Positions 14,301-17,300 of a stretch of DNA of 64,000 nt are shown piece after piece. The stretch is from Escherichia coli O127:H6 str. E2348/69 (GTDB taxonomy: Bacteria; Pseudomonadota; Gammaproteobacteria; Enterobacterales; Enterobacteriaceae). A program made the position numbers. Within the stretch, counting starts at the first letter, position 1, and the number at the start of each line of letters is the position of its first letter. The stretch lies in the NCBI RefSeq assembly GCF_000026545.1, contig NC_011601.1, one strand, 5' to 3'.

Positions 14301-17300
14301 CTTTGTACTGGCTTGCCATGTAGAAGAAGCCTTCCATCTGCGGGTTGGTGCTGAACAGTTTCAGGCCCAGCGCCCAGGTGGTGCAGATAAGCAGCCATAC
14401 AGCCGGAACAACAGTTACCCAGATGTATTGGGTGCGCTTCATCTTAATCAGTACAACGGTGCCCAGTACCAGCGCCACGGCTGCCAGCATCTGGTTGGAG
14501 ATACCGAACAGCGGCCACAGGCTCTTAACGCCGCCCAGCGGATCGACCACGCCCTGATACAGCAGGTAGCCCCACAGACCCACACAGCCCGCAGTACCGA
14601 TGATACCGGCAACCAGAGAGTCGGTTTTTTTCAGGAACGGGATGAAGTTACCCAGCAGGTCTTGCAGCATAAAGCGGCCAGAACGGGTACCCGCATCCAG
14701 CGCGGTCAGGATGAACAGGGCTTCGAACAGAATACCGAAGTGATACCAGAAGCCCATGTCAGCCATCGGCAGCACTTTGTGGAACACGTGAGCGATACCT
14801 ACCGCCAGCGTTGGCGCACCACCTGCACGGTTCAGGACAGAAGGCTCACCAATGTCTTTCGCGGTTTGCAGGATCTGCTCTGGCGAAATCACGAAGCCCC
14901 AGGAGCTGACGGTCGCTGCCGCGTGTGCGGTAACGTCTTTCAGCTGTGCCATGATGATCGGCGCGTTCTCGCCACCCATTTCATGCAGGTTAGGCATGGT
15001 GATGCCGAGGCCAGCAGGCGGGGTGTTCATCGCGAAGTAAAGACCCGGTTCGATGATGGACGCAGCAACCAGCGCCATAATCGCCACGAAGGACTCCATC
15101 AGCATTGCGCCGTAGCCGATGAAACGCGCGTCGGTTTCATTAGCCAGCAGTTTCGGCGTCGTACCGGAAGAGATCAGCGCGTGGAAGCCAGATACCGCAC
15201 CACAGGCGATGGTGATGAACAGGAACGGGAACAGAGCGCCTTTCCACAGCGGGCCAGTACCGTCAATGTACTGGGTCATGGCAGGCATTTTCAGTTCCGG
15301 GTTCAGCACCACGATACCCAGCGCCAGGCCGACGATAACGCCGATTTTCAGGAAGGTTGCCAGATAGTCGCGCGGTGCGAGGATCAGCCACACTGGCAGC
15401 AGTGCGGAGACAAACGCATAGCCAATCAGCGCGAAAGTAATGGTGGTATCTTTAAAGGTCAGTGCCGGACCCCAGTACGGATCGTGAGCAATCACGCCAC
15501 CGAAGTAGATAGAGGCAACCAGCAGCACGATACCAATGACAGAGACTTCACCCACACGCCCCGGACGAATAAAGCGCATGTAGATACCCATAAACAGCGC
15601 AATCGGTACGGTTGAGCAAACGGTGAAGACACCCCACGGACTTTCGGCCAGGGCTTTAACCACAATCAGCGCCAGAACGGCGAGGATGATGATCATGATT
15701 AAGAAACAGCCAAACAGCGCGATAGTCCCCGGTACTGGCCCCATCTCTTCTTTGATCATCTCACCAAGAGATGCGCCATTACGGCGAGAGGAGATAAACA
15801 GCACCATAAAGTCCTGAACCGCACCGGCCAGCACGACCCCCGCCAGCAGCCACAGTGTGCCAGGCAGGTAGCCCATCTGCGCGGCGAGAACCGGACCCAC
15901 CAGCGGACCAGCACCGGCGATAGCGGCGAAGTGGTGACCAAACAACACGTAACGGTTGGTCGGAACGTAGTTCAGACCGTCGTTGTTAATAACCGCAGGC
16001 GTCGCGCGCGTGGGGTCGAGTTTCATCACCTTCTGGGCGATGTACAGACTGTAGTAGCGATACGCCACCAGATACACCGACACAGAGGCGACCACGATCC
16101 ACAGGGCGCTGACGTGCTCCCCCCGACGTAATGCAACTACCGCGAGGCAGAATGCACCGATGATTCCGAGAATCACCCAGGGTATGTGCTTGAATATCTT
16201 TTTAGTATCCATAGTAAAACCTGGCATGTATTGATTAATAGTTGGCCGAAGCCGTTCTAGGTTTGCGTTGCGTTTGAGGAGGTAAATTGACCGCTATCCT
16301 GCAGTGATGTTGCCAGAGTTACGCGCGCGTAAAGTAAGGTAAATAACTGAGTGGTTATTTTAGGGACGTAAGCGGTCAGGAATGGCGGTGAGCGGCAAAG
16401 GCGTCGTTTAAGTGACCATAAATATGTGATTTATATCACATATTTATATTGCGAATAATTTATGTAAATAATGGCTTTTTAAATTCAGGGGGTGAATAAA
16501 ATTACTCGACGTCATCTCCGCGGGATTTTCATAAAGTTTTTCCTTTCCAGGCCGAAAATCTTGCATCGGTCCACAGGAAAGAGAAACCATGTTAAAACGT
16601 ATCAAAATTGTGACCAGCCTACTGCTGGTTTTGGCCGTTTTTGGCCTTTTACAACTGACTTCAGGCGGTCTGTTCTTTAATGCCTTAAAGAACGACAAAG
16701 AAAATTTCACTGTTTTACAAACCATTCGCCAGCAGCAATCCACGCTGAATGGCAGCTGGGTCGCGTTGTTGCAGACGCGTAACACCCTCAACCGCGCGGG
16801 TATCCGCTACATGATGGATCAGAACAATATTGGTAGCGGTTCAACCGTTGCTGAGCTGATGCAGAGTGCCAGTATTTCGCTGAAACAGGCGGAAAAAAAC
16901 TGGGCGGATTACGAAGCGTTGCCGCGTGACCCGCGTCAGAGCACCGCCGCAGCGGCAGAGATCAAACGTAATTACGATATTTATCACAATGCGCTGGCGG
17001 AGCTGATACAACTGTTAGGTGCAGGCAAAATCAACGAGTTCTTTGATCAGCCGACCCAGGGATATCAGGACGGTTTCGAGAAGCAGTATGTGGCTTACAT
17101 GGAGCAAAACGATCGGCTCTATGATATCGCCGTCAGCGATAACAATGCCTCCTACAGCCAGGCGATGTGGATTCTGGTAGGCGTGATGATCGTCGTACTG
17201 GCGGTCATCCTCGCCGTCTGGTTCGGTATTAAAGCCTCGTTGGTCGCGCCAATGAATCGCCTGATTGACAGCATTCGTCATATTGCAGGCGGCGATCTGG

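What the first reader, a model, noticed from the sequence alone, without database searches (positions are those of the whole stretch)
16420..16445. Near-perfect CRP palindrome in the btsT/tsr intergenic region
AAATATGTGAT-ttat-ATCACATATTT has perfect 11-bp inverted arms and the TGTGA-N6-TCACA core. This fits the reported cAMP-CRP dependence of the pyruvate transporter gene. It is known biology, noted for completeness.
Basis: partly seen in the sequence, partly recalled or inferred. Interest (0 to 1): 0.15.

Follow-up and report, generated by a model that had tools for sequence, protein, structure and literature searches.

The report
Known CRP site of btsT promoter
The palindrome is a real, strongly conserved binding site for the catabolite regulator CRP that belongs to the promoter of the pyruvate transporter gene btsT (not to the neighbouring tsr gene); this is already known biology.

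Summary
The window (E. coli E2348/69) has a perfect inverted repeat with 13-nt arms at 16418-16447. It contains the window's only exact TGTGA-N6-TCACA (16425-16440; 0.06 expected by chance), in the btsT/tsr spacer.

The K-12 ortholog of this site is listed under a published genomic-SELEX cAMP-CRP peak in the yjiY<>tsr spacer. A btsT promoter reporter is dead in a crp deletion mutant.

New here:
- 78 of 80 btsT loci from other Enterobacteriaceae species carry a CRP-like site at this position.
- Its centre lies 36.5 bp from the first of three phased BtsR-type boxes in 75 of 82 promoters. The 24 nt in between are not conserved.
- The upstream neighbour varies (tsr, hpaC, others), so the site belongs to btsT.
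- In roughly 2,260-2,640 of 5,389 complete E. coli genomes other genes, the hpa cluster where inspected, separate btsT from tsr. The CRP site stays with btsT and the sigma-28 promoter stays with tsr.

CRP most likely co-activates btsT with BtsR from about -125 to -133. The transcription start is inferred, not mapped. The finding is ordinary and already known, so interest is low.

The parts
16418..16447 (.). Perfect inverted repeat, 13-nt arms with a 4-nt centre. The 22-bp CRP site is 16422-16443, the TGTGA-N6-TCACA core is 16425-16440, and the dyad centre is 16432.5.
   Evidence: conserved in 78/80 species loci; K-12 ortholog listed under a SELEX CRP peak
16389..16396 (-). BtsR-type box 1 (GCCGCTCA, 7/8 match to ACC[G/A]CT[C/T]A; it is ACCGCTCA in hpa+ E. 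coli and other genera). It starts 36.5 bp from the CRP dyad.
   Evidence: a box is present at this offset, within 1 bp, in 80/82 promoters
16348..16376 (-). BtsR (YehT) direct repeat ACCGCTTA-N13-ACCACTCA (boxes 2 and 3).
   Evidence: only match in the window, 0.01 expected. Motif recalled from the Kraxenberger 2012 abstract; the 13-bp-spacer direct repeat is cited in PMC4222967.
16307..16315 (-). Conserved TGGCAACAT, read as an extended -10 (TGnCAnnAT). The predicted btsT transcription start is about 16300 (inference).
   Evidence: motif at a fixed offset of 114.5-117.5 in 74/82 promoters; invariant TG, A at hexamer position 2 and T at position 6
14062..16212 (-). btsT (yjiY) coding sequence, pyruvate/H+ symporter. 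This is the gene served by the CRP site.
16396..16525 (.). AT-rich 130-bp segment specific to hpa-less Escherichia. It carries this allele of the CRP site and is replaced in E. coli strains that have other genes (the hpa cluster where inspected) between btsT and tsr.
16532..16558 (+). Sigma-28 (FliA) type promoter of tsr, TAAAGTTT-N11-GCCGAAAA. It travels with tsr, not with the CRP site.
   Evidence: RpoF holoenzyme SELEX peak in the yjiY<>tsr spacer (PMC5493296)
16589..18253 (+). tsr coding sequence (serine chemoreceptor), a divergent neighbour in this strain.

Best explanation
The palindrome is the cAMP-CRP operator of the btsT (yjiY) promoter. When glucose is absent, cAMP-CRP binds the dyad centred at 16432.5. 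Together with the pyruvate-responsive LytTR response regulator BtsR it switches on transcription of btsT on the minus strand. BtsR is expected to occupy three phased boxes that start 36.5, 56.5 and 77.5 bp promoter-proximal of the dyad. The start site I infer (about 16300, from a conserved extended -10-like TGGCAACAT) puts CRP near -132.5, or about -125 under an alternative -35/-10 assignment. That is too far upstream for classical class I or II activation on its own. CRP therefore most likely works as a co-activator (class III-like). It would bend the DNA and either stabilise BtsR on its boxes or bring an RNA polymerase alpha-CTD into reach. The cross-species invariant CRP-to-box spacing fits this. 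Shown: the sequence anatomy, conservation and spacing (here); in-vitro CRP enrichment of the K-12 spacer and crp-dependence of the promoter (literature). Inferred: the start site, the role of box 1, and the way CRP and BtsR cooperate.
For: Anatomy. Literature: SELEX-chip CRP peak with the motif TGTGATTCATATCACA in the yjiY<>tsr spacer, which is identical to the K-12 sequence at the orthologous place. PbtsT-lux is abolished in a crp deletion. cAMP-CRP requirement and catabolite repression of btsT are cited. yjiY ranks among the top predicted CRP sites in PhyloScan. Conservation: 78/80 species loci have exactly one site with at most 1 core mismatch, 193-221 bp from the btsT ATG, or further where the leader carries an insertion. 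An independent MAFFT alignment of 20 promoters (18 genera, including three E. coli-type sequences) gives invariant GTGA and TCACA columns. Spacing from the dyad to box 1 is 36.5 bp in 75/82 promoters and within 1 bp in 80/82. The intervening 24 nt carry 0.32 bits per position, against 1.8 in the core. Assignment to btsT: the upstream neighbour is tsr, hpaC, a deaminase or something else, and the distance from the dyad to the tsr ATG ranges from about 119 to 1155 bp. In E. coli strains with hpa or deaminase genes upstream of btsT, a different CRP allele (TGTGATTGAGATCACA) keeps exactly the same spacing to the btsT boxes. In the one tsr-side junction I inspected (HB101), tsr keeps only its 63-bp sigma-28 module.
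Against: The btsT transcription start was not available to me, so -125 to -133 is an inference. That far upstream, a direct role is less self-evident than at -61.5 or -41.5. No site-directed mutation of this palindrome was found in the papers I could read (Kraxenberger 2012 is not held). The loss of expression in a crp mutant could therefore be partly indirect. The SELEX table assigns the motif under a chip peak by sequence, not by footprint. The information content of the core is partly circular, because I selected sites by core match, although the MAFFT alignment is not.
Confidence: 0.88

Rival explanations
1. The CRP site serves tsr, or both divergent genes, so that CRP directly activates the serine chemoreceptor promoter.
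For: In this strain the dyad lies about 133 bp upstream of the start predicted from the sigma-28 promoter at 16532-16558. Shimada 2011 lists yjiY<>tsr as a divergent predicted target pair.
Against: In roughly 2,260-2,640 of 5,389 E. coli genomes btsT and tsr are not adjacent. Three hpa/deaminase-type strains were inspected. In BL21 and STE15 a CRP site stays next to btsT, and in HB101 tsr keeps only about 63 bp of conserved upstream DNA. Across genera the dyad-to-tsr distance varies from 119 to 1155 bp, while the dyad-to-box-1 distance is fixed. Species whose btsT has hpaC or another gene upstream still have the site. tsr carries a near-consensus FliA promoter.
Confidence: 0.07
2. The palindrome acts as a nucleic-acid hairpin (terminator, RNA element or cruciform) rather than as a protein operator.
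For: As RNA the region folds into a 13-bp stem, -14.1 kcal/mol, z = -4.25.
Against: Any palindrome folds. There is no U-tract and no terminator call and no Rfam match. The site lies upstream of both predicted start sites. Across 75 distinct orthologous 30-mers only the inner 5-6 bp stay palindromic. The outermost core pair is broken in 44/75 (T to C or A opposite an invariant A) with no compensatory change, and the outer arm pairs are broken in most.
Confidence: 0.02
3. The site is for a different CRP/FNR-family regulator (for example FNR), or is a chance AT-rich palindrome.
For: The local GC content is only 20-23%, and AT-rich DNA yields palindromes easily. FNR sites (TTGAT-N4-ATCAA) overlap the CRP pattern.
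Against: G at core position 2 and C at the mirror position, the bases that distinguish CRP sites from FNR sites (established knowledge), are invariant in 75/75 sequences. Conservation at a fixed position across more than 25 genera excludes chance. CRP enrichment of the K-12 spacer is published.
Confidence: 0.03

Closest known systems
The published CRP site of the E. coli K-12 yjiY(btsT)/tsr spacer (Shimada et al. 2011 genomic SELEX; cAMP-CRP dependence of yjiY, Kraxenberger et al. 2012)
   Same: It is the orthologous position with the same 13-nt arms and the same core. The K-12 site TGTGATTCATATCACA differs from the window's TGTGATTTATATCACA by one base in the non-contacted spacer.
   Different: Only the strain (EPEC E2348/69) and that single spacer base differ. 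In effect it is the same element.
uhpT-type co-dependent promoters (response regulator UhpA at about -80 to -32 plus CRP at -103.5), and other class III CRP promoters such as araBAD, melAB and rhaBAD. These are recalled from the literature, not tested here.
   Same: CRP sits upstream of an array of sites for a signal-specific activator and adds catabolite control to it.
   Different: Here CRP would be even further upstream (about -125 to -133, inferred). The partner is a LytTR-type regulator with three phased direct repeats. Cooperation between CRP and BtsR has not been shown.
The cstA promoter (paralogous pyruvate/peptide transporter), with CRP about 80 nt upstream of the start
   Same: A paralogous transporter that is also cAMP-CRP dependent, with an unusually distal CRP site (PMC7730263).
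   Different: cstA has no BtsR boxes. It is sigma-70/CRP/Fis controlled.

Membership tests
cAMP-CRP binding site (E. coli CRP regulon operator) | 22-bp two-fold symmetric site with a TGTGA-N6-TCACA core | tested here: met
   Exact core at 16425-16440, 18/22 to the consensus, perfect 13-nt arms
cAMP-CRP binding site (E. coli CRP regulon operator) | G:C pairs at core positions 2 and 4 of each half-site (contacted by CRP; they distinguish CRP sites from FNR sites) | tested here: met
   G, G and the mirror C, C are invariant in 75/75 orthologous sites
cAMP-CRP binding site (E. coli CRP regulon operator) | Physical binding by cAMP-CRP | not testable with these tools
   Literature only: a genomic SELEX-chip peak in the K-12 yjiY<>tsr spacer with the orthologous motif listed (PMC3105977). 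No footprint was seen.
cAMP-CRP binding site (E. coli CRP regulon operator) | crp/cAMP-dependent expression of the adjacent gene | not testable with these tools
   Literature: PbtsT-lux is abolished in a crp deletion (PMC7730263); catabolite repression is cited
cAMP-CRP binding site (E. coli CRP regulon operator) | Conserved in orthologous promoters (phylogenetic footprint) | tested here: met
   78/80 species loci; invariant columns in a 20-sequence MAFFT alignment; flanks unconserved
Class I / class II CRP-dependent promoter | Dyad at -41.5 (class II) or near -61.5, -72.5, -82.5 or -92.5 (class I) relative to the transcription start | tested here: inconclusive
   With the start inferred from the conserved TGnCAnnAT motif, the dyad is at about -132.5, or about -124.5 with an alternative -35/-10. 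The start is not mapped. The position argues for co-activator (class III-like) architecture.
Intrinsic terminator / structured RNA | Stem-loop followed by a U-run, or base pairs maintained by compensatory change | tested here: not met
   No terminator call, no Rfam hit, outer pairs broken without compensation
BtsR (YehT, LytTR) operator | Direct repeats of ACC[G/A]CT[C/T]A | tested here: not met
   The palindrome itself has no such repeat. The repeats lie 36-85 bp promoter-proximal of it.

The most novel reading that the evidence does not exclude
CRP and BtsR may form a rigid, evolutionarily frozen nucleoprotein complex. It would comprise one CRP dimer 36.5 bp from the first of three (in some genera four) BtsR boxes spaced 20-21 bp apart, including a distal box that, as far as I can tell, is not part of the published two-repeat BtsR site. 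CRP would then act from about -130 through BtsR (cooperative binding or DNA bending) rather than by touching RNA polymerase. That would be a new CRP/LytTR co-activation mode.
Probability: 0.3. Interest if true: 0.35.

Novelty: already known. Interest (0 to 1): 0.13.

Why it matters
The finding adds little, because the site, its regulator and its target gene are already in the literature. The modest added value is threefold. First, natural rearrangements (hpa and other genes between btsT and tsr, and variable neighbours across genera) assign the site to btsT rather than tsr. Second, the invariant CRP-to-BtsR-box spacing and a conserved third box give a concrete, testable promoter architecture for how catabolite and pyruvate signals are integrated. 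Third, the spot just beyond the CRP site is where gene content varies between strains and genera.

Tried and rejected
- Kraxenberger et al. 2012, the primary paper on yjiY, YehT and CRP, could not be read by DOI or PMC id. The position of the CRP site relative to a mapped start site could not be taken from it. A literature search for a mapped start also gave nothing.
- The simple sigma-70 scan found no minus-strand promoter. I therefore inferred the -10 from conservation.
- I considered a sigma-54 reading of CTGGCAACATCACTGCA (GG/GC spacing fits in E2348/69). I rejected it because the -12 GC is absent in K-12 and Salmonella and BtsR has no AAA+ domain (established knowledge).
- I considered TTTACC-N17-AACTCT as -35/-10. 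It is less likely, because position 2 of that hexamer is not conserved.
- The hairpin, FNR and chance readings were rejected.
- A search for papers on the hpa insertion point returned nothing useful.
- A megablast of the BL21 leader insertion found one copy per genome. Only a more sensitive blastn showed that it is a dispersed repeat.

Full report
**1. Observation.**
The perfect inverted repeat is in fact longer, with 13-nt arms at 16418-16430 and 16435-16447 and 4 nt between them. The core TGTGA-N6-TCACA lies at 16425-16440. It is the only exact match in the 64-kb window, against 0.06 expected from shuffles, and 5 of 100 shuffles give at least one match. Allowing one mismatch adds only a chance-level site at 63570. 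The 22-mer at 16422-16443 matches the textbook CRP consensus at 18 of 22 positions, so there is no hit at 3 or fewer mismatches. The four differences are at weakly constrained positions.

The window is identical to E. coli E2348/69. RefSeq annotates btsT (minus strand, window 14062-16212) and tsr (plus strand, 16589-18253) on either side. The site sits in a 20-23% GC trough.

**2. What surrounds it.**
Reading the minus strand, which is the btsT orientation, I found these elements downstream of the palindrome:
- A BtsR/YehT-type direct repeat ACCGCTTA-N13-ACCACTCA at 16376->16348. It is the only match in the window, with 0.01 expected. The motif is recalled from the Kraxenberger 2012 abstract, and a 13-bp-spacer direct repeat for YehT is cited in PMC4222967.
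- A third, more distal box, GCCGCTCA, at 16396->16389.
- A conserved TGGCAACAT at 16315->16307.
- The btsT ATG at 16212.

On the plus strand there is a near-consensus sigma-28 promoter, TAAAGTTT-N11-GCCGAAAA, at 16532-16558. It lies 31 bp before the tsr ATG. This agrees with an RpoF-holoenzyme SELEX peak in the yjiY<>tsr spacer (PMC5493296).

**3. Literature.**
- Shimada et al. 2011 (PMC3105977) list yjiY<>tsr among spacers that gave a genomic-SELEX cAMP-CRP peak. Their supplementary table gives the motif TGTGATTCATATCACA at 4.58952 Mb. That is exactly the K-12 sequence at the orthologous position, one spacer base different from the window.
- Gasperotti et al. 2020 (PMC7730263) report that loss of CRP "completely abolished" PbtsT-lux activity.
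- Several papers from the Jung laboratory cite Kraxenberger et al. 2012 for the cAMP-CRP requirement and catabolite repression of yjiY/btsT.
- PhyloScan (2007) already ranked yjiY among the best cross-species CRP predictions.
- The primary 2012 paper is not held. I could not check whether the site itself was mutated or where the start site was mapped.

**4. Cross-species test.**
A scan of one genome per GTDB species with the first 350 residues of BtsT returned 80 loci from more than 25 enterobacterial genera. In 78 of them there is a site with at most one core mismatch upstream of btsT. The two exceptions are L052, which has only 121 bp of upstream DNA, and L085, whose best site has two mismatches. 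The site is 193-221 bp from the ATG, or 251-357 bp in six loci with longer leaders, some of which carry an insertion. Only one additional such site occurs in 56 kb of upstream sequence.

A MAFFT alignment of 20 promoters, made without reference to the motif, gives invariant GTGA and TCACA columns with unconserved flanks.

The geometry is very stable. Over 82 promoters (78 species loci plus the window, K-12, BL21 and STE15):

| Feature | Offset from the CRP dyad | How often |
|---|---|---|
| Start of box 1 | 36.5 bp | 75 of 82; within 1 bp in 80 of 82 |
| Boxes 2 and 3 | 56.5 and 76.5/77.5 bp | in nearly all (within 1-2 bp) |
| TGnCAnnAT motif | 114.5-117.5 bp | 74 of 82 |

The 24 nt between the CRP site and box 1 carry only 0.32 bits per position, against 1.8 in the core. 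The core value is inflated by my selection of sites, but the alignment is not affected by that. Conserved spacing across unconserved sequence points to a constraint on geometry between CRP and the BtsR array.

**5. Whose site is it?**
The gene upstream of btsT varies. It is tsr (divergent) in Salmonella, many Citrobacter, Kosakonia and others. It is hpaC (same strand) in Klebsiella, Raoultella, Enterobacter and others. It is a deaminase in one locus and something else in the rest. The CRP site is present in all these settings. Its distance to the tsr ATG ranges from about 119 to about 1155 bp.

Within E. coli:
- 2,751 of 5,389 matching genomes have a contiguous btsT-tsr spacer like the window.
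- 2,744 carry the window-type 130-bp segment 16396-16525.
- 2,261 instead carry a BL21-type junction.

In BL21 the genes next to btsT are hpaC and hpaB. In HB101 tsr is preceded by hpaR and hpaG. In STE15 a deaminase gene lies next to btsT. So in these strains the hpa cluster, or other genes, lies between btsT and tsr. The sequences diverge exactly at 16395/16396, which is the first base of box 1.

The hpa/deaminase-type strains nevertheless have a CRP site (TGTGATTGAGATCACA) at the identical 29-nt distance from the shared sequence. This allele, GTGATCTCAATCACATA in btsT orientation, is the form common to most other genera. The window's allele and its 130-bp context occur only in hpa-less E. 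coli and, at 81% identity, in E. albertii.

On the other side, the 63 bp before tsr (the sigma-28 module) stay with tsr in HB101. They also stay with tsr in many genera, even where tsr is more than 1 kb from btsT. The spacer therefore consists of two independent modules, and the CRP site belongs to the btsT module.

**6. Rivals.**
- Hairpin or terminator. The RNA fold is stable, but any palindrome folds. There is no T-run and no Rfam match. Across 75 distinct orthologous 30-mers only the inner 5-6 bp remain symmetric. The first core pair is broken in 44 of 75 (T to C or A opposite an invariant A) without compensation.
- FNR. The G and C that distinguish CRP sites from FNR sites are invariant.
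- Chance. This is excluded by conservation.
- A direct role at tsr. This is unlikely for the reasons in section 5.

**7. Mechanism.**
Shown: the anatomy and its conservation (here), CRP enrichment of the K-12 spacer in vitro, and crp-dependence of the promoter (literature).

Inferred: TGGCAACAT is an extended -10. The TG, the A at hexamer position 2 and the T at position 6 are invariant. That gives a start near 16300 and an 88-nt leader. It puts the BtsR boxes at about -96 to -48 and the CRP dyad at about -132.5. An alternative assignment, TTTACC-N17-AACTCT, would put the dyad at about -124.5, but its -10 is not conserved.

Either way CRP is too distal for ordinary class I or II activation. 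I therefore favour co-activation with BtsR, a class III-like logic as at uhpT, araBAD or melAB (recalled from the literature). CRP would act by DNA bending and/or cooperative binding, giving an AND gate of "no glucose" and "pyruvate present".

**8. Verdict.**
The element is already known, so interest is low. The incremental points are the assignment to btsT by natural rearrangements, the frozen CRP-BtsR spacing, and a conserved third BtsR-type box.

Noticed in passing
window 16395/16396 and about 16526; loci L002, L003, L005: The btsT-tsr spacer is a site of gene-content variation. Only 2,751 of 5,389 matching E. coli genomes have a contiguous spacer, and 2,261 carry a BL21-type junction. hpa genes flank the junction in BL21 and HB101, and a deaminase gene flanks it in STE15. 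The left breakpoint falls exactly at the first base of the distal BtsR-type box. The 130-bp segment 16396-16525 is found only in hpa-less E. coli and E. albertii.
   Followed up: partly
window 16389-16396 (- strand): There is a third BtsR-type box (GCCGCTCA here, ACCGCTCA or ACCGCTTA elsewhere) 20 bp upstream of the published two-repeat site. It is conserved at a fixed offset (within 1 bp) in 80/82 promoters. About 20 loci in several genera also have a weaker fourth box about 20 bp further upstream (offset about 16.5).
   Followed up: partly
L002 1372-1500 (BL21 btsT leader); window 58461-58583: A palindromic element of about 125 bp is inserted in the btsT 5' leader in 2,065 E. coli genomes and in L007, L008 and L019. 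It moves the CRP site from -220 to about -343 relative to the ATG. A 76%-identical copy lies elsewhere in the window at 58461-58583. It looks like an ERIC/IRU-type repeat, but that identification is from memory and was not tested.
   Followed up: partly
window 63570-63585: A second CRP-like core with one mismatch (TGTGAAAAATGTCACC). The number of such sites in the window is at chance level (2 found, 1.88 expected).
   Followed up: no
window 16213-16300 (- strand): The predicted btsT leader has conserved GGA-containing stretches (CAGGATAG near the 5' end, CCAGGTTTTACTATG at the ribosome-binding site). This is consistent with the reported CsrA control of btsT translation.
   Followed up: no
L078: A contig labelled Chryseobacterium sp. 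18061 encodes a BtsT 95% identical to the E. coli protein over the first 350 residues, with the full enterobacterial CRP/BtsR promoter. It is probably a contaminant or a mislabelled assembly.
   Followed up: no
window 18296-20037 (- strand): Immediately downstream of tsr, E2348/69 carries TRAP transporter permease genes on the minus strand.
   Followed up: no
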